A DNA stretch of 64,000 nucleotides. Source: Escherichia coli phage phiS. The stretch lies in sequence record PP449093.1; one strand, 5' to 3'. Under the pieces are notes generated by a model. It ran no database searches and was not told where the DNA came from. It was given only the letters and a program-made list of their open reading frames with translations. Position 1 is the first letter of the stretch; every line of letters begins with the position of its first letter. Below, piece after piece: positions 13,348 through 21,235 of the stretch. The position numbers and the translations under genes were made by a program.

Positions 13348-14830
13348 TATCATTAACCAGCTTGCAGCGACCGACAAAACATCGCTGAAAGAAAAGATCC
13401 TGAAAGAATCCGCAAGTAATGAAACTCTGAAAGAATGCTTTTATCTGGCATATTGCAAACAGGTTACGTTTGGCGTAAAGAAATACGATAAACCATCGCG
13501 TTATTCGTCTGTATTGTCTTTATCCGGTGCATTACAGGTCTTTAAAAATAAACTTGCCACGCGTCAAGTAACTGGTAATGCAGCATTACAGCTAGTTACC
13601 GATACTCTGACTTGCTTGTCAGAGGATGATGCTAAAGTTGCAATGATGGTCCTGAATCGTGATCTGGAGTGTGGTTGTTCCGCTACCACTGCAAACAAGG
13701 TATGGAAGAAACTGATCCCCCAGCAACCGTGCCACCTTGCATCGTCATGTTCTGATAAGACTATTGCCAATATCAAATATCCGGCGTATGCACAACTTAA
13801 AAGCGATGGCGCTCGTGGTATGGCTGATATTGACGGGGAAACATTAGCAATCTATACCCGCTCAGGTAATACCTATCAAGGGCTTGATGATTTGTTTGCG
13901 GTTTTAGAGCGTCTACGAGGCCGTGGAATTGTTCTAGATGGCGAATTGGTATATATGCCTACCCTTTCGCAAACACCAGCGCAGAACTTCGTTGAGAGCG
14001 TTTATGATGGTACTCTGTCATGGATATTTGAAGAAGAGGAAATGCCATTAACGCCAGTAGCGGAAGCAGTGAAAGAATCCGTTGTTGCAGATCGTCAGAC
14101 CGGAAATGGTATCCTCAACAAATCACTTAAAGGAACTATTCCAAAAGAAGAAGCCCAATGTATTGTTTACACTGTCTGGGATGTTATCGACCGTGATGTG
14201 TATTACGGAAACGAGAAAGCAACGAAGCAATATAAAGATCGATTCGAAGAACTAAAACAGATTGTTGAAGAACTTAACGATCCTCGTGTTCAGATAATCG
14301 AAAATACTGTAGTTAACAATATCGATGAAGCTCGCGAAGTATATCATCGCTATGTAAACATGGGATTAGAAGGCATTATCCTTAAAAATTTACATGGTGT
14401 ATTTGAAGATCGTCGCAGTAAAGATCAGGTTAAATTTAAAGAAGTGATTGACTTCGACGCGGAAATTGTTGATGTATATCCGCATAGTAAAGATCCTAAT
14501 AAGGTAGGCGGTTTTACTGTCCGTAGTGCGTGCGGACGAATGATGACTAACACCGGATCGGGATTGACCGACACCACAACCGAAAAAGGCGATGATGGTA
14601 TTGAACGTGTGATTCCGTTTGACCGTCGAAATGAACTTGACCGAGAAATGTTATGGGCTGACCGTCATAACCTGATTGGAAAAGTCATTGAGATGACATG
14701 CAACGGGTATATCCGCAGCAAATCACGTAAAGAAGATGAACCGGAGTTCTCTTTATTTCTCCCAATCATAAAACGTATTCGCTACGACAAGACCACTGCA
14801 AATACAGTAAAAGAGGTATTCGATGTGTGA
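13334..14830 (+). CDS. 30: ATP-dependent DNA ligase
   Basis: Adenylation motif AQLKSDGARG (KxDG); overall resemblance to T4 gp30; RBS GAGGTGA. Confidence 0.95.
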   Translation: MSILNIINQLAATDKTSLKEKILKESASNETLKECFYLAYCKQVTFGVKKYDKPSRYSSVLSLSGALQVFKNKLATRQVTGNAALQLVTDTLTCLSEDDAKVAMMVLNRDLECGCSATTANKVWKKLIPQQPCHLASSCSDKTIANIKYPAYAQLKSDGARGMADIDGETLAIYTRSGNTYQGLDDLFAVLERLRGRGIVLDGELVYMPTLSQTPAQNFVESVYDGTLSWIFEEEEMPLTPVAEAVKESVVADRQTGNGILNKSLKGTIPKEEAQCIVYTVWDVIDRDVYYGNEKATKQYKDRFEELKQIVEELNDPRVQIIENTVVNNIDEAREVYHRYVNMGLEGIILKNLHGVFEDRRSKDQVKFKEVIDFDAEIVDVYPHSKDPNKVGGFTVRSACGRMMTNTGSGLTDTTTEKGDDGIERVIPFDRRNELDREMLWADRHNLIGKVIEMTCNGYIRSKSRKEDEPEFSLFLPIIKRIRYDKTTANTVKEVFDV

Positions 14831-15299
14831 TAATGAAGGGGCGAAAGCCCCTAAACCTAAAAAATTGTCAAAGAAAGAGCAACGCCAGATCCTGAAAATG
14901 AAATATGGTGGACGTTGTGCCTATTGTGGCGAGGAACTAGGGGATCGCTGGCACGCAGACCACATCAAACCAGTATTGCGACGCTCAAAGGTAGTCTATG
15001 ATGAAAATGGACGAATTGCCCGTAATGATGATGGATCGTGGAAGTATAAGGTTGTAGGAATGCATAAACCGGAGCATGATATACTTGATAACATGAATCC
15101 GGCGTGTGTGCAATGCAATCTTTACAAAAGCTGTATGGGCTTAGAATACTGGCGTAAGTGTATACGCGAGAACTTCCAGAAGTACATTCAGCACAATATG
15201 GGATTGCGAGCGGCTAAACGCTTTGGCTTGCTGTCAATTCATGACCAGCCAGTAGAATTTTATTTCGAAAAGTACGAGCGCGAGCATCAAGAAAAATAA
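14823..15299 (+). CDS. HNH nuclease (McrA-like zinc-finger HNH)
   Basis: CAYCG ... HADHIKP ... CVQCNLYK pattern typical of HNH nucleases. Confidence 0.65.
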   Translation: MCDNEGAKAPKPKKLSKKEQRQILKMKYGGRCAYCGEELGDRWHADHIKPVLRRSKVVYDENGRIARNDDGSWKYKVVGMHKPEHDILDNMNPACVQCNLYKSCMGLEYWRKCIRENFQKYIQHNMGLRAAKRFGLLSIHDQPVEFYFEKYEREHQEK

Positions 15300-15313
15300 T
15301 TCAAAAAAAGTTG

Positions 15314-15342
15314 TTGACAGGGGATCACCGATCCCCTATACT
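15314..15342 (+). promoter_or_regulatory. PeSL-like early promoter: TTGACA - 17 bp - TATACT
   Basis: Spacer is the perfect inverted repeat GGGGATC acc GATCCCC. Confidence 0.6.
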
Positions 15343-15387
15343 ACACACATCAAAACGAAACACACTTTCTTAAACGGAGAATCAAAA

Positions 15388-15555
15388 ATGTTCCAGACTA
15401 AAGCAGAATGCGAAGCATACATTGTAGCAAACCACGGTGAAGACTACCTGAAATTCGATATCGTAGTAGCACAGAAGATCACCGGAATGGTTGCAAAATA
15501 TCTGGGTGTTAAAGAAGGTTACTATCCAAGCAACGCACCAGAAATTAACAAATAA
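15388..15555 (+). CDS. Small protein (55 aa), paralog of 18645..18812
   Basis: Not in ORF track; MFQTKAECEAYIVANHGEDYLKFDIVVAQK...; near-identical second copy at 18645. Confidence 0.5.
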   Translation: MFQTKAECEAYIVANHGEDYLKFDIVVAQKITGMVAKYLGVKEGYYPSNAPEINK

Positions 15556-15558
15556 TAG

Positions 15559-15587
15559 TTGACAATGATTAAAGGGAGTAGTAAGAT
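15559..15587 (+). promoter_or_regulatory. PeSL-like early promoter: TTGACA - 17 bp - TAAGAT
   Basis: Inverted repeat GGGAGTA gtaaga TACTCCC. Confidence 0.55.
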
Positions 15588-15619
15588 ACTCCCATAAAGA
15601 CAACAAACGGAGAATCAAA

Positions 15620-15799
15620 ATGAAAGCTATCGAAGTTCAGAAGTACATGGAACTCATCATTGAAGGTAAAGCACATACAGTATTGACTACCCACGTAGGA
15701 TATGATAAAAATGTGCATATGCTGGTAGACAATATCGGTTGGATGAAGTTTAATCCTAACGAGAATGTACAAGCTCAAGAAATGACCATCCCTTTCTAA
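15620..15799 (+). CDS. Hypothetical small protein (59 aa)
   Basis: ATG with GGAG RBS downstream of PeSL. Confidence 0.4.
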   Translation: MKAIEVQKYMELIIEGKAHTVLTTHVGYDKNVHMLVDNIGWMKFNPNENVQAQEMTIPF

Positions 15800-15811
15800 G
15801 AGGAATATATT

Positions 15812-16090
15812 ATGATGCGAATTACTGCAACGCTGGATAAGACACACAAAGAAAGATTTTTCGGTATGATCTTAAAAACGCCGATTTTCGATAATTACCT
15901 TTATGTTGACTATGACGGTCACATTAGCTATAAATGTAAAAATGATATTCGTGATTCCTTTGGTGATAAATCACAAGCCGATATTCATGACCACTGGTGG
16001 AACCATGACGAACCTTTACGAGTTATCGCAGTTGATGTAAAAACAACAAAAGAAGCTGATAAGGTAGTGAATGATTATGAGCAAATTTAA
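15812..16090 (+). CDS. Small protein, member A of a 4-copy paralog family (HxHW motif)
   Basis: YLYVDYDGHISY ... HDHWW ... RVIAVDV shared with 16491, 16816 and 17513 ORFs. Confidence 0.5.
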   Translation: MMRITATLDKTHKERFFGMILKTPIFDNYLYVDYDGHISYKCKNDIRDSFGDKSQADIHDHWWNHDEPLRVIAVDVKTTKEADKVVNDYEQI

Positions 16091-16286
16091 AGAATACAAA
16101 GCATATCAACAGATTTTGCGAGTATACGCACCAGAGTTCGCCGAAAAGATGATGGAAGATGCATCAAAATGCCCGTCCTTTTCTGGAAACAAAAACCATT
16201 ATTCGACTGGTATTGTGTCATGGAAAGAAACCGCATATACTCAACAATGGATAGAGGTTTTCTCAAAAACTCTTGATTGGTGTTAA
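16077..16286 (+). CDS. Small protein, tandem paralog 1 (MSKFK family)
   Basis: MSKFKEYKAYQQI...MMEDA...WKETAY; paralog of next ORF. Confidence 0.45.
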   Translation: MSKFKEYKAYQQILRVYAPEFAEKMMEDASKCPSFSGNKNHYSTGIVSWKETAYTQQWIEVFSKTLDWC

Positions 16287-16288
16287 TT

Positions 16289-16504
16289 ATGAGCAAATTT
16301 AAAGATTATCGAGCATATAAAGCGATCTGCGATATATTCGATGAAAAGACCGCTCATGCAATGATGGAAGATGCAGAACAATATGAATCATTCGTCAATT
16401 CCAAAGATTGCACAGTAAACGGGATTGTGTGCTGGAAAGATACAAAGTATGAAGAAAAATGGATTACTGTGTATTACGGAGAACTAGAATATGAAATTAA
16501 CTAA
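16289..16504 (+). CDS. Small protein, tandem paralog 2 (MSKFK family)
   Basis: MSKFKDYRAYKAI...MMEDA...WKDTKY. Confidence 0.45.
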   Translation: MSKFKDYRAYKAICDIFDEKTAHAMMEDAEQYESFVNSKDCTVNGIVCWKDTKYEEKWITVYYGELEYEIN

Positions 16505-16811
16505 AAAGATTTTCCCAGAATTGCGTAACTGTCTGTTATTGGTTACTGAATATAAGCCGTATGCGATCTACTTGTATGTTGATGAAAATCTGAAAATCCG
16601 TTACTATGATTATACGTCTCCAGTGATGAAATCATTTGCTCACTCGATAGCAAATAACTGTATGAATCACAATCATTGGGTATCAGAAACGGATGACGAT
16701 GCGTCAGAAGTTGTAGTGGTTGCATGGAATCTATCACCAGCGGAAGCAGATCAAGCACGCATTAAGCATTATGCGAAAAACAATTGGTTTGACCTTATAA
16801 GTGAGGACTAA
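16491..16811 (+). CDS. Small protein, member B of the 4-copy paralog family
   Basis: ELRNCLLL...YLYVDENLKIRYYDY...HNHW...VVVVAWNL. Confidence 0.5.
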   Translation: MKLTKKIFPELRNCLLLVTEYKPYAIYLYVDENLKIRYYDYTSPVMKSFAHSIANNCMNHNHWVSETDDDASEVVVVAWNLSPAEADQARIKHYAKNNWFDLISED

Positions 16812-16815
16812 TATT

Positions 16816-17094
16816 ATGTTCAAAGTAGGTGATAAGTTTATTCTTAGTCGTGATATTCTACCTAATCTGAAAGGTTGTATCATCAATCCTAGTAAAAATT
16901 CATGGTTTTATCTGTTTATCGACGACAAACTGAATGTACGCGCCGAATATAAAGAAGGTCTTCGCACTGGCCTCGGTTTCTTTAACGATCACGATCATAG
17001 CCATTGGCTAAACGGTGGATTCGAAGCAACGGTGCTCGCGGTTGATGTGACCTACACAAACATCATAGAAAAATATCAAAAAATTATTTTATAA
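16816..17094 (+). CDS. Small protein, member C of the 4-copy paralog family
   Basis: FYLFIDDKLNVRAEY...HSHW...VLAVDVT. Confidence 0.5.
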   Translation: MFKVGDKFILSRDILPNLKGCIINPSKNSWFYLFIDDKLNVRAEYKEGLRTGLGFFNDHDHSHWLNGGFEATVLAVDVTYTNIIEKYQKIIL

Positions 17095-17100
17095 AAAGTG

Positions 17101-17129
17101 TTGACATAAGATCGGGTGTATAGCATAAT
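17101..17129 (+). promoter_or_regulatory. PeSL-like early promoter: TTGACA - 17 bp - CATAAT
   Basis: Inverted repeat GGGTGTAT agcataa TACACCC. Confidence 0.6.
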
Positions 17130-17175
17130 ACACCCATCGAAACGAGATACACTTTCTAACTAGGAGAATCAAATT

Positions 17176-17463
17176 ATGGCATACATCACCATCACTCTGA
17201 AAGTTAACAAATTTGCTCACGCTGCACACGAAACCGATAATGCAATCCGTAACAACAAGTTCGCACGTCTGGTACGCGATGCGGTAGCTAAAGAGTTCAA
17301 CTTCAAATTTGCCGATGGTAAAGTTATCACTAAATGGACTCATGACGGCGAAACTAAAGTAGAACTTGCTGACAACTTCGCAAATCAGGAATATGCACAC
17401 CGTCGCATTAATGAAATTATCAGCGATGAACTCTACTACGGTGTACAGGAAGGACTGTTTTAA
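17176..17463 (+). CDS. Hypothetical protein (95 aa)
   Basis: GGAG RBS, downstream of PeSL. Confidence 0.45.
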   Translation: MAYITITLKVNKFAHAAHETDNAIRNNKFARLVRDAVAKEFNFKFADGKVITKWTHDGETKVELADNFANQEYAHRRINEIISDELYYGVQEGLF

Positions 17464-17512
17464 TATATGGGGCGTTAAGCCACTTTTAATCTATCTGAAT
17501 GAGGATATCACT

Positions 17513-17821
17513 ATGAAAAATCTTGTAGTTGAATTTACCCGCGAGAATTTACCACAATTACGCAACTCTCTGCTTAAACTAGAGAACAGTAATTATGATG
17601 TATATTTTTACATCACAGAAGACCTAGAGATCCTTTACGCAGATTATCCAGGTCCGATCCGTACTTTCGAAACAGCATCAAAGTATAAAAATGTTTACGG
17701 TCATGAGCACTGGTTACGAGAAAACCCAGGTCGCAAGAAAGCACGCGTTAAAGTGCTGGCGATTGACATAACACCAGCATACGCCGACCGGATTGCACAG
17801 AATGATTATTTGTCTAAATGA
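17513..17821 (+). CDS. Small protein, member D of the 4-copy paralog family
   Basis: LPQLRNSLLKL...VYFYITEDLEILYADY...HEHW...VLAIDIT; GAGGA RBS. Confidence 0.5.
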   Translation: MKNLVVEFTRENLPQLRNSLLKLENSNYDVYFYITEDLEILYADYPGPIRTFETASKYKNVYGHEHWLRENPGRKKARVKVLAIDITPAYADRIAQNDYLSK

Positions 17822-17828
17822 TTTTATT

Positions 17829-17855
17829 AGCCGACCTTAGCGTCGGCTTTTTTAT
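17829..17855 (+). terminator. Rho-independent terminator
   Basis: AGCCGAC cttagc GTCGGCT followed by TTTTTT. Confidence 0.6.
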
Positions 17856-17877
17856 TGCATAAAATTTTAAAAAAGAA

Positions 17878-17906
17878 TTGACACCAGATCACGCCTATAG
17901 CATAAA
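17878..17906 (+). promoter_or_regulatory. PeSL-like early promoter: TTGACA - 17 bp - CATAAA
   Basis: Conserved leader ...cacccatcaaaacgagataccacttaGGAGaatcaaacaATG. Confidence 0.5.
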
Positions 17907-17947
17907 TACACCCATCAAAACGAGATACCACTTAGGAGAATCAAACA

Positions 17948-18217
17948 ATGGCACTGACTAAAACCACTACCAACTTTGCAAAACGTCACGGCTTCGACCT
18001 TGAAATCAATAGCTTTAACGATTACACCCTTCTGTGTGTATATGAAATCGAAAATGATTGCGAGTGGATGTTCAGCTATCGCGTAAACGAAGACGGATCT
18101 TTCACTTGGAACGGAAATATCTATCTTGCACAGGAAGTAAAAGAAGAACTTCCGGCGACCATCAAAGATGAGAAACATTTACGTCAAGTTTTAAAATTTA
18201 TTTCTGAAAATATCTAA
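17948..18217 (+). CDS. Hypothetical protein (89 aa)
   Basis: GGAG RBS, PeSL upstream. Confidence 0.45.
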   Translation: MALTKTTTNFAKRHGFDLEINSFNDYTLLCVYEIENDCEWMFSYRVNEDGSFTWNGNIYLAQEVKEELPATIKDEKHLRQVLKFISENI

Positions 18218-18225
18218 AAAAGTTG

Positions 18226-18254
18226 TTGACACTAAAGTAAGAACATAGCATAAT
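18226..18254 (+). promoter_or_regulatory. PeSL-like early promoter: TTGACA - 17 bp - CATAAT
   Basis: Consensus hexamers with 17-bp spacing. Confidence 0.55.
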
Positions 18255-18287
18255 ACACCCATACCGAAACGAACTGGAGAATCAAAA

Positions 18288-18569
18288 ATGAAATTCATCA
18301 AAGCAACCGAAATCCTGAAAAACAAAGAAGCATACATCGGAAACATCGTTGGTATGAACATTCGCGGCGCTGGTAGCCAGTGGACCAAACTGGTTGATGT
18401 TAAAGCTAAAGGCGATAAAATTGAGTTCACTGTAAAAATGCTTACGCATAACGCACATATGGGTATCAAGACAAAAACGATGGCAGCAGATAAAAGCATT
18501 AACTATCAGGATCTGGGTGATTGGCTGAACTGGTGCAAAATGCACAACATCGAAACTAATCACGAATAA
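18288..18569 (+). CDS. Hypothetical protein (93 aa)
   Basis: GGAG RBS, PeSL upstream. Confidence 0.45.
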   Translation: MKFIKATEILKNKEAYIGNIVGMNIRGAGSQWTKLVDVKAKGDKIEFTVKMLTHNAHMGIKTKTMAADKSINYQDLGDWLNWCKMHNIETNHE

Positions 18570-18582
18570 TTTAAAAAAGTTG

Positions 18583-18611
18583 TTGACGGGGATCGGGAGA
18601 TCCCCTATAAT
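18583..18611 (+). promoter_or_regulatory. PeSL-like early promoter: TTGACG - 17 bp - TATAAT
   Basis: Inverted repeat GGGGATC ggga GATCCCC. Confidence 0.6.
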
Positions 18612-18644
18612 ACACACATACCGAAACGAAATAGGAGAATCAAA

Positions 18645-18812
18645 ATGTTCGAGACTAAAGCAGCATGTGAAGCATATATCATTGAAACCTACGGTGAAGA
18701 TTATCTGAAATTTGACATTGTAGTAGCACAGAAGATTGTAGGGATGGTTGCGAAATACCTGGGTGTTAAAGAAGGTTACTATCCTAGCAACGCACCAGAA
18801 ATTAACAAATAA
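18645..18812 (+). CDS. Small protein (55 aa), paralog of 15388..15555
   Basis: MFETKAACEAYIIETYGEDYLKFDIVVAQK... Confidence 0.5.
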   Translation: MFETKAACEAYIIETYGEDYLKFDIVVAQKIVGMVAKYLGVKEGYYPSNAPEINK

Positions 18813-18826
18813 TTTTATAAAAAGTG

Positions 18827-18855
18827 TTGACAGGGGAGGATAACTCCCCTACAAT
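18827..18855 (+). promoter_or_regulatory. PeSL-like early promoter: TTGACA - 17 bp - TACAAT
   Basis: Inverted repeat GGGGAG gataa CTCCCC. Confidence 0.55.
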
Positions 18856-18895
18856 ACAACCATCAAAACGAGATACCACTTAGGAGAATCAAACA

Positions 18896-19147
18896 ATGGC
18901 TAACATCGAAACCGCAAAGAAAATCGCTAAAGACCTGAACGTTAAAGGCTTCCGTAAACTGAAATTACAGCGTGTACGCTACACCATCGGCAAACAGTGC
19001 TCTTTCATGAGCGAAGAAATTGCTAACAGCCTGATTGATAACCTGATTGCGGCTGGCTGGGAAGTTGCGGATCTGAAAACTTGCCGCGAACTGGCTAACA
19101 AAGGTCTTTTAGATTCTGTTACTATCAAACCAATGGGGGCAGCGTGA
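18896..19147 (+). CDS. Hypothetical protein (83 aa)
   Basis: GGAG RBS, PeSL upstream. Confidence 0.45.
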   Translation: MANIETAKKIAKDLNVKGFRKLKLQRVRYTIGKQCSFMSEEIANSLIDNLIAAGWEVADLKTCRELANKGLLDSVTIKPMGAA

Positions 19148-19680
19148 ACAATATAGACTGGAAGAAATACTTTAATTATGATCCTGATACTGGTATTCTT
19201 ACATGGAAGGAGAGAACAGATATACACCCATCAAGAATAAAACAATGGAATGCTGCATGGGCTGGAAAGGAGGTCGGGTCACTAGGAAGTGGTGGACGTT
19301 ATCTTGAATCGTCAATAAAAATTGACGGTAAAATTATTAACTACAAAGTTCATCGAGTATGTTATATTATCCACAATGGACCTATACCAGAAGGATATGA
19401 AGTAGACCATATTAATCACATTAAGACAGATAATAGAGCGGTGAATTTTGAACTTAAGACACATCAAGACAACATGAGGAATCAAACAAAATCTAAAAAG
19501 AATACAAGCGGACACAGTGGAATACATAAAAACAAATACAATAAATGGGTAGTTAGAATTGGCAGCGGTCGTCGTGGTGATAGAAAATATCTAGGATGCT
19601 TCGATACATTAGAAGAAGCTATAGAGGTTAGAACCAAAGCAGAAAGAGAGCATGGCTATCATGAAAACCACGGAAAGTAA
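19144..19680 (+). CDS. HNH endonuclease with C-terminal AP2-like DNA-binding domain; GTG start
   Basis: HNH core YEVDHINHIKTDNRAVNFELKTHQDNMRNQ; AP2-like GIHKNKYNKWVVRIGSGRRGDRKYLGCFDTLEEAIEVR. Confidence 0.7.
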   Translation: MNNIDWKKYFNYDPDTGILTWKERTDIHPSRIKQWNAAWAGKEVGSLGSGGRYLESSIKIDGKIINYKVHRVCYIIHNGPIPEGYEVDHINHIKTDNRAVNFELKTHQDNMRNQTKSKKNTSGHSGIHKNKYNKWVVRIGSGRRGDRKYLGCFDTLEEAIEVRTKAEREHGYHENHGK

Positions 19681-20386
19681 ACTTATATTCTGTAATTTTG
19701 ATGGGTCCGGTATCATGGGTCTAGAATGGGCGAAAGCAGGTCATAAGGTGATCTGCTTTAACGCAGATGATGCGGATCATGGAACATATAAAAAATACAA
19801 CACTCGATTTGAGCATCCCAACCTAACATATGTTAATGCATGGATTGACCTAGATTGGTTGGAAAGGGCAATGGACCTTGAATGGGGCAAACCGGATATG
19901 ATCTTTGCGTTTCCTAGCTGTTCAAATTTAGCGGTTAGTGGCGCTGCACATTTTGAGCGTAAGCGAAAAACTCTAGGTCCACTCATTCAGCATAGAGATG
20001 TTCAAACAGCTAAAATAACCGCTTATTTGGGTGAATGGCTAGGAGTTCCCTACATGATAGAGAATCCTGTAAGCGTTATCTCTAGCATGTGGCGTAAGCC
20101 TGATTATATGTTCCATCCGTGGGAATATGGCGGTTATTTGCCGGAAGATGATAAACATCCTACTTTTCCTGAGTATATTGCCGCCCGTGATATGTACCCG
20201 AAAAGGACTTGCTTATGGACCGGACAAGGCTTTATAATGCCAGAAAAGAAACCGTTGCAGATTAATAAAGGGTACAGTAAACAGCATTCTAAGCTAGGCG
20301 GGAAAGGAACGAAAACAAAGACTATAAGGTCACTTACCCCGCGAGGATTCGCAAAGGCAGTATTTGAAGCAAATAAGGATCTATAA
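19652..20386 (+). CDS. Compact cytosine-C5 methyltransferase-like protein (catalytic domain only)
   Basis: Motif I-like FCNFDGSGIMG, motif IV-like DMIFAFPSCSNLAVSG (PSC instead of canonical PCQ), motif VI-like MIENP; start overlaps 3' end of the HNH-AP2 gene. Confidence 0.55.
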   Translation: MAIMKTTESKLIFCNFDGSGIMGLEWAKAGHKVICFNADDADHGTYKKYNTRFEHPNLTYVNAWIDLDWLERAMDLEWGKPDMIFAFPSCSNLAVSGAAHFERKRKTLGPLIQHRDVQTAKITAYLGEWLGVPYMIENPVSVISSMWRKPDYMFHPWEYGGYLPEDDKHPTFPEYIAARDMYPKRTCLWTGQGFIMPEKKPLQINKGYSKQHSKLGGKGTKTKTIRSLTPRGFAKAVFEANKDL

Positions 20387-20715
20387 TGAGATTGTTTAAG
20401 TATTCGCTAACGTCAAATTACGATAAACAAGGTCATTGCATCCGTTGCCCTGATTGTCATAACCATAACATCGAAAGCAAGATCACCGATCATATTGATG
20501 GACTTTGGTCGCCAGCAAGTGAAATAGAATACTATTGCGCTGATTGTGGAATTGTAGTAGCATATTGGGCATACGGATCATATGATCCATACTTCCAGAT
20601 GGGAGAGCGTTCAATCCCTGCGCTTATCTGGAGAATTAAGAACAATATCCGCCATTCATGGGATGAGTTATTAAAAGATATTGATTTACGTGATGATCCA
20701 TTCAGGAGACTATAA
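20386..20715 (+). CDS. Zinc-ribbon protein (two CxxC pairs)
   Basis: CIRCPDC ... CADCG. Confidence 0.45.
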   Translation: MRLFKYSLTSNYDKQGHCIRCPDCHNHNIESKITDHIDGLWSPASEIEYYCADCGIVVAYWAYGSYDPYFQMGERSIPALIWRIKNNIRHSWDELLKDIDLRDDPFRRL

Positions 20716-20716
20716 C

Positions 20717-21235
20717 ATGAACAGATTAACCCCTAAACGCCGTTACTATACCAATACTAAAAACTTTGTCATCTCTGTTTATGAGGCGTGGTTAGAAGAT
20801 GGCTATATCAACATGAACCCAGATTATCAGCGTCCTTTGGTATGGGACACCGAAAACAAACGTATGTTTATCGAAAACCTGATTAATGATTTTCCGGTTG
20901 GTGCTATCGCAATGGCTAAGATTGATGATGGCTCTCGATATGAGATCGAAATCGTGGACGGTAAACAGCGTTTAAACGCAATATTCTCCTTCATGAAGGA
21001 TGAGTTTAGCATTGCTGGTAATGATGATTCTATGCTGTATTACAGTGATTTTACGCCAGCAGAAAAGCGACGTTTCCGAAATCTCGGACTACCCGCGATA
21101 ATGATGGAAGAGAGCACACGAGAAGACCGATTAGAGTATTTCTACAAAACAAACTTTTTCGGTGTCCCTCAATCGGAAGAACATCGCCAGCATGTGATTT
21201 CCCTATTGCAAGATGAGCAATTAAAAAATAACTAA
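20717..21235 (+). CDS. Standalone DUF262 (ParB/Srx-like NTPase domain) protein
   Basis: PDYQRPLVW ... IVDGKQRLNAI matches the DUF262 signature (DxQR ... DGQQR); AGGAGA RBS before ATG 20717. Confidence 0.55.
   Translation: MNRLTPKRRYYTNTKNFVISVYEAWLEDGYINMNPDYQRPLVWDTENKRMFIENLINDFPVGAIAMAKIDDGSRYEIEIVDGKQRLNAIFSFMKDEFSIAGNDDSMLYYSDFTPAEKRRFRNLGLPAIMMEESTREDRLEYFYKTNFFGVPQSEEHRQHVISLLQDEQLKNN

What the first reader, a model, noticed from the sequence alone, without database searches (positions are those of the whole stretch)
15812..17821. Four-member paralogous family of ~100-aa proteins sharing an HxHW motif
ORFs at 15812, 16491, 16816 and 17513 share the pattern Y-x-Y-(V/I)-(D/E)-x-x-L-x-I-x-Y ... 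H-x-HW ... (V/L)-A-(V/I)-D-(V/I)-T. Repeated diversification of one small fold in an accessory region is typical of host-interaction or anti-defence factors.
Basis: seen in the sequence. Interest (0 to 1): 0.5.

Follow-up and report, generated by a model that had tools for sequence, protein, structure and literature searches.

The report
Orphan HxHW protein family, Krischvirus phage
Four neighbouring small genes in this RB49-like E. coli phage are true but very old copies of one gene, part of a phage-specific family with no known relatives or function, probably used early in infection as dispensable helper proteins.

Summary
The ORFs at 15812, 16491, 16816 and 17513 are real, significantly related paralogs. 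Leave-one-out profiles recover each copy with E from 3.5e-5 to 7e-14. H-x-H-W occurs only in these four ORFs in the whole window.

The window is a Krischvirus (RB49-like T4-type coliphage). The genes lie in the early-transcribed hyperplastic region between the gene 30 DNA ligase and alt, behind sigma-70-type promoter/stem-loop cassettes (PeSLs).

Eight of the nine full-length relatives' regions examined carry six members in fixed order. This phage has lost two through a deletion that leaves a single PeSL at the junction.

All four genes are under purifying selection (dN/dS 0.08-0.26). Single members are frameshifted or deleted in some isolates. Some slots are replaced by diverged variants in otherwise near-identical genomes.

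Function is unknown. The host-interaction or anti-defence reading is plausible from context but untested. This is a modestly interesting orphan family.

The parts
15314..15342 (+). PeSL (sigma-70-like early promoter TTGACA-17-TATACT with the stem-loop GGGGATC/GATCCCC between the boxes). It sits at the junction where relatives carry two more family members. It drives the unrelated 55-aa gene G (15388-15555).
   Evidence: repeat family D2; similarity to most relatives breaks at about window position 15390. PeSL definition from PMC2839356.
15559..15593 (+). PeSL promoter (TTGACA-17-TAAGAT) with stem GGGAGTA/TACTCCC. It is the likely start of the early transcription unit I-A-E-F-B-C.
   Evidence: No other strong promoter match (at least 11 of 12) and no convincing terminator lie before 17101. 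The transcription unit is inferred.
15812..16090 (+). Family member A (92 aa; RB49p203 ortholog; phrog_15972); motif HDHWW.
   Evidence: dN/dS 0.15.
16491..16811 (+). Family member B (106 aa; RB49p200 ortholog; phrog_9345); motif HNHWV. Its start overlaps the end of gene F by 14 nt.
   Evidence: dN/dS 0.10.
16816..17094 (+). Family member C (92 aa; RB49p199 ortholog; phrog_17255); motif HSHWL. The ATG at 16816 with a GAGGA Shine-Dalgarno sequence is preferred over the GTG at 16801.
   Evidence: dN/dS 0.08.
17101..17136 (+). PeSL promoter (TTGACA-17-CATAAT) with stem GGGTGTA/TACACCC. It is the likely start of the early unit J-D.
   Evidence: families D2/D3.
17513..17821 (+). Family member D (102 aa; RB49p197 ortholog; phrog_9345); motif HEHWL. 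It is the most variable gene of the block. The longer TTG-17366 ORF overlaps gene J and is not the annotated start in relatives.
   Evidence: dN/dS 0.26. 70-97% identity between phages against 97-100% for most neighbours.
17829..17856 (+). Intrinsic-terminator-like hairpin AGCCGAC-CTTAGC-GTCGGCT followed by a T-run, directly after D.
   Evidence: Annotated as a terminator at the same place in G2494 and Ec_Makalu_001.
16071..16504 (+). Interleaved, unrelated paralog pair E (16071-16286) and F (16289-16504), 43% identical (phrog_8471). Not family members but in the same operon.
   Evidence: D7.

Best explanation
The four genes are members of a lineage-restricted family of small (about 85-110 aa), soluble alpha/beta proteins. 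The family is found in RB49-like T4-type phages (genus Krischvirus) and a few short metagenome contigs.

Shown:
- The copies arose by ancient duplication.
- They lie in a fixed array in the hyperplastic region between DNA ligase gene 30 and alt.
- Each is under purifying selection.
- Single members can be lost.
- Whole slots are exchanged for diverged variants between otherwise near-identical genomes.
- This phage has four of the usual six, with a single PeSL at the junction.

Inferred:
- They are transcribed immediately after infection from PeSL early promoters, as two units (I-A-E-F-B-C and J-D).
- They are non-essential accessory proteins acting in the host cytoplasm early in infection, in host takeover or counter-defence.
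- The near-invariant His-x-His-Trp loop between strand 4 and strand 5 is a shared functional site for a metal, a small ligand or a common docking contact.
- The diverged surfaces give each paralog its own specificity.

My confidence in the descriptive part is about 0.9. The confidence value of 0.4 given for this explanation applies to the functional inference.
For: Paralogy.

Phage identity and location.

Early promoters and PeSL cassettes. Promoter and terminator activity of RB49/phi1 PeSLs (PeSL206/205, 193/192, 211/210) was shown experimentally in PMC2839356.

Real coding genes under constraint: dN/dS A 0.15, B 0.10, C 0.08, D 0.26.

Dispensability:
- Eight of the nine full-length relatives' regions examined have six members; this window has four.
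- G5211 is the only one of the 58 matching records that is collinear across the HNH-to-G junction.
- D is frameshifted in kvi and JSE. C is truncated and D absent in contig L005, which also has no match to J, K or L.

Diversification:
- D is 70-97% and A 58-99% identical between phages whose flanking genes (ligase, G, J, K, L) are 97-100% identical.
- In L013 and L016 the B and C slots hold two other B-like variants (45-58% identical to B), while the p208-like member and D stay 91-95% identical to the reference; A does so only in L013.
- The variable residues of D cluster at positions 3-6, 15-18, 63-67 (next to the motif), 74-76 and 91-95.

Ancient origin: the L003 contig carries recognisable p208-like, C-like (as a two-domain fusion), A-like and B-like members at 30-50% identity.

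Motif: 65 of 66 motif instances read HxHW and one reads SNHW. The motif lies in the lower-confidence loop of otherwise good AF2 models.

Soluble: GRAVY -0.12 to -0.72, pI 5.5-7.9.
Against: There is no direct evidence of function, target, timing of expression or metal binding.

Gene-wide dN/dS is below 1, so there is no statistical signature of positive selection.

The six paralogs are retained in nearly all genomes examined. That fits a conserved, possibly cooperative function as well as it fits an arms-race role.

A motif kept invariant over paralogs only 20-35% identical is more typical of a catalytic or ligand-binding site than of protein-binding inhibitors.

The hyperplastic regions of T4-type phages hold many ORFans of unrelated or unknown roles, so location is weak evidence.

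The fused relative gave no confident inter-domain packing (pTM 0.49), so oligomerisation is unsupported.
Confidence: 0.4

Rival explanations
1. The proteins are small metal-dependent enzymes or small-molecule binders (sponges). Their common active or binding site is the His-x-His-Trp loop, possibly completed by oligomerisation. The paralogs would differ in substrate or ligand, for example nucleotides, signalling molecules or modified bases.
Against: There is no third invariant metal ligand; the acidic positions are not conserved. One allele of the p206-like member has Ser in place of the first His. No fold match to cupins, metallo-beta-lactamases, HIT proteins, carbonic anhydrase, 2H phosphoesterases or known sponge proteins in the PDB. 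There is no Pfam hit. Ninety to 105 residues is very small for an enzyme.
Confidence: 0.25
2. The proteins are nucleic-acid- or ribosome/RNA-polymerase-binding regulators with a small SH3/KOW-like beta-barrel core. They would tune phage or host gene expression early in infection.
Against: All these hits are below significance. Pfam KOW/Tudor models do not match any of 23 members. The proteins are acidic to neutral (pI 5.5-7.9), which is not typical of nucleic-acid binders. This idea does not explain the HxHW motif.
Confidence: 0.1
3. The genes are essentially selfish or neutral cassette cargo. They would be kept in the region because PeSL-mediated recombination moves and re-inserts them, with little contribution to phage fitness.
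For: PeSL cassettes flank the units and are known to mediate insertion, deletion and mini-circle formation in this very region of RB49/phi1 (PMC2839356). Members are lost or inactivated in several isolates.
Against: Purifying selection acts on all four genes (dN/dS 0.08-0.26). Eight of the nine full-length relatives' regions examined keep six members in the same order. Paralog-specific orthologs survive at 30-50% identity in a distant relative. The motif is invariant.
Confidence: 0.1
4. The similarity is chance, or the ORFs are not genes.
For: Some pairwise BLAST scores are low (27-30 bits).
Against: Leave-one-out HMM E-values run from 3.5e-5 down to 7e-14. PHROG models give cross-hits. The motif is enriched 4 against 0.55 expected. 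dN/dS is below 1. Each gene has a Shine-Dalgarno sequence. All four are annotated in every relative's record examined.
Confidence: 0.01

Closest known systems
PHROG families 9345, 17255, 15972, 15965 and 16486 (all 'unknown function'); RB49 ORFs p197, p199, p200, p203, p206 and p208
   Same: These are the same proteins. A matches phrog_15972, B and D match phrog_9345, and C matches phrog_17255, at E from 1e-47 to 1e-64. The two members missing here match phrog_15965 and phrog_16486.
   Different: The catalogue splits them into five separate families with no function. Profile cross-hits and the shared motif show that they form one superfamily. In the papers I checked there was no description of them as paralogs.
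PeSL + ORFan cassettes of the hyperplastic regions of RB49/phi1 (Arbiol et al. 2010, PMC2839356)
   Same: Same phage genus and same region (HPR3). The sigma-70-like promoter with a G-rich/C-rich stem-loop, an AT-rich upstream stretch and a Shine-Dalgarno sequence is present before the transcription units. The deletion in this phage leaves a single PeSL at the junction, as in the paper's model for ORF192.
   Different: The paper describes the mobile regulatory cassettes, not their protein cargo. Here several family genes share one PeSL-driven unit. They are not one gene per cassette.
Other paralog sets in T4-type accessory regions (alt with alt.-1/alt.-2; the polymorphic internal-protein locus)
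   Same: These are duplicated, diversified non-essential genes next to conserved modules. The alt paralogs lie just downstream in this window (PMC1524935).
   Different: There is no sequence or fold relation. By inspection of the N-termini only, the family lacks the N-terminal capsid-targeting sequence and the (L/I)-x-E cleavage site that define T4 internal proteins. Its location also differs.
Motif look-alikes: alpha-carbonic anhydrase zinc site (H-x-H-W), metallo-beta-lactamase HxHxDH, cupin HxH...E, HIT HxHxH
   Same: All have a short His-x-His element that, in those families, binds metal or substrate (established knowledge).

Membership tests
   Leave-one-out HMM E-values are 1.2e-6, 6.9e-14, 3.5e-5 and 1.5e-13 against 734 window ORFs. 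PHROG models give cross-hits.
   Only D (pLDDT 80, pTM 0.76) and the C-like N-domain of the fused relative P0058 (pLDDT about 90) were modelled. Both are four strands, a loop carrying HxHW, a fifth strand and a C-terminal helix. A, B and C of this window were not modelled separately.
PeSL cassette (PMC2839356) | Sigma-70-like -35/-10 boxes with a 17-nt spacer, an AT-rich upstream stretch, a stem-loop in or next to the promoter and a downstream Shine-Dalgarno sequence, repeated in the region | tested here: met
   Promoter matches of 10-11 out of 12 at 15314, 15559, 17101, 18226, 18583 and 18827. Stems GGGGATC/GATCCCC, GGGAGTA/TACTCCC and GGGTGTA/TACACCC. Repeat families D2-D6.
PeSL cassette (PMC2839356) | Promoter and terminator activity in vivo | not testable with these tools
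   Shown by lacZ fusions for some RB49/phi1 PeSLs in the paper, but not for the ones in this window.
Any Pfam / NCBIfam family | Score above the curated threshold | tested here: not met
   No hit above threshold for any of 23 members, and no family hit by more than one member.
Known anti-phage defence proteins (PADLOC-DB) | Match to a PADLOC model | tested here: not met
   0 families for 23 members. This library holds defence proteins, not anti-defence proteins. No anti-defence library was available.
Known anti-defence proteins (Acr, Ocr/ArdA, Tad1/2, Acb1/2, Apyc1, Gad, Dmd and others) | Sequence or fold similarity to a characterised member | tested here: not met
Metal-site families with HxH (metallo-beta-lactamase, cupin, alpha-carbonic anhydrase, HIT) | Characteristic fold plus the full ligand set | tested here: not met
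KOW/SH3-like domains (label on P0049 from one source) | Pfam KOW/Tudor/SH3 match, or a structural match to a small barrel | tested here: not met
T4 internal proteins | N-terminal capsid-targeting sequence with a (L/I)-x-E cleavage site; presence in the virion | not tested
   I only inspected the N-termini (MMRITATL, MKLTKKIF, MFKVGDKF, MKNLVVEF). They do not resemble the T4 targeting sequence as I recall it. No proteomics data were available.

The most novel reading that the evidence does not exclude
The family is a previously unrecognised small fold. Its invariant His-x-His-Trp loop would form a metal or ligand site, perhaps completed in an oligomer. The six ancient paralogs, plus the swappable variants, would be a modular set of early effectors. 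Each would neutralise or hijack a different host system, for example different immune signals or defence proteins. That would be a new class of anti-defence or host-takeover proteins specific to phages that, in at least some isolates, lack the cytosine modifications protecting T4.
Probability: 0.15. Interest if true: 0.7.

Novelty: new member of a known kind. Interest (0 to 1): 0.35.

Why it matters
T4-type phages keep most of their unexplained genes in hyperplastic regions, and many recently found counter-defence genes come from such regions.

This result merges five 'unknown' PHROG families into one superfamily. The superfamily has a clear diagnostic motif, a defined array (six slots) and natural knock-outs and slot replacements. 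That gives a compact, testable set of candidates.

Krischviruses are widely isolated for phage therapy. At least some have unmodified cytosines (PMC13390438), so how they cope with host defences is of practical interest.

If the genes turn out to be ordinary dispensable cargo, the main value is a cleaner annotation and a further example consistent with PeSL-mediated deletion.

Tried and rejected
1. Search for more members in the window. HMMs from 4, 15 and 23 sequences find only the four genes.

2. Remote homologs.
- Two word-indexed searches of 5.8 billion proteins returned only RB49-like phage proteins.
- One exhaustive HMMER search of 1.84 billion representatives gave 13 hits. One of them, P0059, is a 649-aa low-complexity repeat protein at E 1.8e-4, which I treat as spurious.
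- A scan of viral contigs gave only two Krischvirus-type loci. The first attempt, with the broad alignment, failed for lack of a conserved stretch.

3. Family libraries. Pfam, PHROGs, PADLOC and NCBIfam gave no functional label.

4. Structure.
- The BFVD exceptions were weak hits to uncharacterised proteins of Pseudoalteromonas phage pYD6-A and Escherichia phage Henu7.
- The AFDB library was not available.

5. The 88-aa protein of G2494 (L001:4857-5123) as a seventh, motif-less member. I rejected it: HMM E 0.23 and hhalign probability 2.5%.

6. The two-domain fusion P0058 as evidence that the domains pair. This was inconclusive: pTM 0.49, a disordered linker and a poorly covered second domain.

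7. Positive selection. Gene-wide Nei-Gojobori dN/dS is below 1 for all four genes. I did not attempt a site-wise test because there were too few sequences.

8. Literature. I found no paper mentioning these ORFs as a family or giving them a function.
Full report
**What the window is.** The 3.6 kb around the finding is 93-97% identical to more than 50 GenBank phages of the genus Krischvirus (RB49, phi1, JSE, ECD7, ELT4 and others), which are T4-type E. coli myoviruses. In annotated relatives the region lies between gene 30.3, the gene 30 DNA ligase and an HNH endonuclease upstream, and a methyltransferase and the Alt ADP-ribosyltransferases downstream. Every gene in between is 'hypothetical protein'. 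This is the hyperplastic region HPR3 described for RB49/phi1 (PMC2839356).

**Check of the observation.** The four ORFs exist as stated on the + strand.
- A is 15812-16090 (92 aa).
- B is 16491-16811 (106 aa).
- C is 16816-17094 (92 aa).
- D is 17513-17821 (102 aa).

Each has a GAGG/GGAG ribosome-binding site 7-9 nt before the ATG. The starts agree with the RB49 annotation, where they are p203, p200, p199 and p197.

In the four-way alignment Y29, H59, H61, W62, V71, A73 and Y89 (A numbering) are invariant. BLASTP gives B-D 35% identity and 55 bits. The other pairs score 27-30 bits, which would be marginal taken alone.

Three independent tests make the relationship secure.
- Leave-one-out profiles from three members rank the fourth first among 734 six-frame ORFs. 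E-values are 1.2e-6, 6.9e-14, 3.5e-5 and 1.5e-13, and the next hits have E > 0.08.
- PHROG models built by others cross-hit: A and C match phrog_9345, the family of B and D.
- H-x-H-W occurs four times in all six-frame ORFs of the 64-kb window, against 0.55 expected, once in each gene.

No further member is present in the window.

**The family is larger elsewhere.** RB49, G2494, ECD7, JK32, kvi, Skers and Makalu_001 have six members in a fixed order: a p208-like and a p206-like gene upstream, then A, B, C and D. So do three uncultured genomes of about 170 kb, although in two of these the B and C slots hold other variants.

In this window the HNH endonuclease gene (14823-15299) is joined directly to gene G (15388). 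A single promoter/stem-loop cassette lies between them, TTGACA-GGGGATCaccGATCCCC-TATACT.

Among the 58 matching GenBank records, G5211 is the only one that is collinear across this junction. PTE-Eco09 has an insert of only about 0.4 kb. All others carry 1.1 kb or more, with similarity breaking at the start codon of G. This is the pattern expected from the PeSL-to-PeSL recombination shown experimentally for neighbouring ORFs of RB49 (PMC2839356). So 'four-member' describes a deletion variant.

Other natural lesions exist. D is frameshifted in kvi and JSE. In contig L005, C is truncated and D is absent, and that contig also has no match to J, K or L.

**Expression context.**
- Strong sigma-70-type promoters (10-11 of 12 matches, 17-nt spacer) with embedded stem-loops lie at 15559 and 17101.
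- A clean hairpin plus T-run follows D at 17829.
- Genes overlap or abut: A/E by 20 nt, F/B by 14 nt, and B/C with a 4-nt gap.

I infer two early transcription units, I-A-E-F-B-C and J-D. Early timing rests on the promoter type and on the published activity of sister PeSLs. It was not measured for these genes.

**Are they functional genes?** Nei-Gojobori dN/dS over 5-9 orthologs is 0.15 (A), 0.10 (B), 0.08 (C) and 0.26 (D). The ligase gives 0.04 and neighbour J 0.02. The genes are constrained, with D the least so.

Protein identity between phages is 70-97% for D. For A it is 93-99%, with a 57-58% allele in L011 and L016. Ligase, G, J, K and L are 97-100% identical. In D the variable positions cluster at residues 3-6, 15-18, 63-67 (adjacent to the motif), 74-76 and 91-95. 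The central strands do not vary.

In two uncultured Krischvirus genomes the B and C slots are occupied by two other B-like variants, 45-58% identical to B. Their p208-like members and D stay 91-95% identical to the reference, as does A in L013.

A 2.1-kb metagenome contig, L003, carries p208-like (50%), C-like (30%, as a two-domain fusion), A-like (37%) and B-like (44%) genes side by side. The duplications therefore predate that divergence. The array is ancient, conserved in number, and locally mosaic.

**What the proteins are.** They are soluble (GRAVY -0.12 to -0.72) and mildly acidic to neutral (pI 5.5-7.9).

AlphaFold2 on a 15-sequence alignment gives D a mean pLDDT of 80 and pTM of 0.76. 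The topology is four beta-strands, a helix-containing loop, a fifth strand and a C-terminal helix. The HxHW motif lies in the least confident stretch, residues 58-67. The N-terminal domain of the fused relative is modelled at pLDDT about 90 with the same order of elements.

Across 23 diverse members only the second His and the Trp are invariant. The first His and one Ala of the last helix are at least 90% conserved. Of 66 motif instances, 65 read HxHW and one reads SNHW. The middle residue is always T, N, E, D or S, and the residue after Trp is hydrophobic.

**Relatives and known families.** None was found.
- Pfam, NCBIfam and PADLOC give nothing significant or recurrent.
- The five PHROGs that hold the members are all 'unknown function'.
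- Two searches of 5.8 billion proteins, and an exhaustive HMMER scan of 1.84 billion representatives, found only phage proteins of this group. The scan gave 13 representatives with E up to 1e-3, one of them a spurious repeat protein.
- The profile search against PDB sequences is empty, with best E 0.12.
- BFVD returns mainly the family itself, plus weak hits to uncharacterised proteins.
- The AFDB library was unavailable.
- The papers I searched do not mention the family.

**Interpretation.** The following are firmly shown:
- a lineage-restricted paralog family;
- ancient duplication;
- an accessory location;
- purifying selection;
- dispensability of single members;
- slot-wise replacement.

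The functional reading is inference from context: early accessory proteins acting on the host or its defences, sharing the HxHW loop as a functional site. I put it at about 0.4.

The main rival, at 0.25, is that the conserved loop is a true catalytic or ligand site and the proteins are tiny enzymes or sponges. This is compatible with an anti-defence role but differs in mechanism. A regulator with a KOW/SH3-like core (0.1) and near-neutral cassette cargo (0.1) are weaker. Chance is excluded.

**Verdict.** This is an uncharacterised orphan family inside a known kind of genomic setting. It is worth a targeted experiment but is not in itself surprising to a T4 specialist. I score interest at 0.35.

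Noticed in passing
window 15388-15555 and 18645-18812: Two 55-aa genes (G and H, phrog_8009) form a 172-nt direct repeat, 87% identical and 3.26 kb apart. Each lies behind a PeSL. They bracket the block that holds all four family genes, so recombination between them could delete or circularise the whole block.
   Followed up: partly
window 16071-16286 and 16289-16504: A second, unrelated paralog pair (E and F, 71 aa each, 43% identical, phrog_8471) is interleaved between family members A and B. F has two alleles among Krischviruses: 62-65% against 96-100% identity to this one.
   Followed up: partly
window 14823-15390: There is a deletion relative to nearly all other Krischviruses. The HNH gene is followed by one PeSL and then gene G, where relatives carry 1.1-2.3 kb with four to seven small genes, including two family members. 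G5211 is the only one of the 58 matching GenBank records that is collinear across this junction.
   Followed up: yes
window 19144-19680: A 178-aa HNH_3 endonuclease ORF (Pfam E 3e-17) has no counterpart in nine compared Krischvirus loci. Its end overlaps the start of the methyltransferase-like gene at 19652-20386. It is probably a homing-endonuclease insertion.
   Followed up: partly
window 20681-21235: A phage-encoded protein carries a GmrSD_N (DUF262) domain (Pfam E 4.7e-20). It is conserved across the genus (98-99% identity). Such a domain is better known from host type IV restriction enzymes.
   Followed up: no
window 15294-15363, 15556-15620, 17081-17150, 17865-17945, 18213-18290, 18563-18647, 18807-18895: Seven promoter/stem-loop (PeSL) cassettes fall within 3.6 kb. 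They share an AT-rich leader, TTGACA, a G/C-rich stem, a -10 box and a common 'GGAGAATCAAA' ribosome-binding region.
   Followed up: partly
L003 823-1434 (metagenome contig SRR8048117_15661): A 203-aa protein is a natural fusion of two family domains joined by a linker of about 28 residues that is predicted to be disordered. It sits in a tandem run of four family genes.
   Followed up: partly
L013 8001-8674 and L016 5663-6327 (uncultured Krischvirus contigs): The B and C slots are occupied by two other B-like variants (45-58% identical to B), and gene F is missing. Most flanking family genes stay 91-95% identical to the reference. Whole slots have been replaced.
   Followed up: yes
literature (PMC13390438): The Krischvirus phages TB34 and SAP are 99.96% identical, yet one has canonical cytosines and the other fully modified ones. 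The modification pathway is unknown. I found no link to this family.
   Followed up: no
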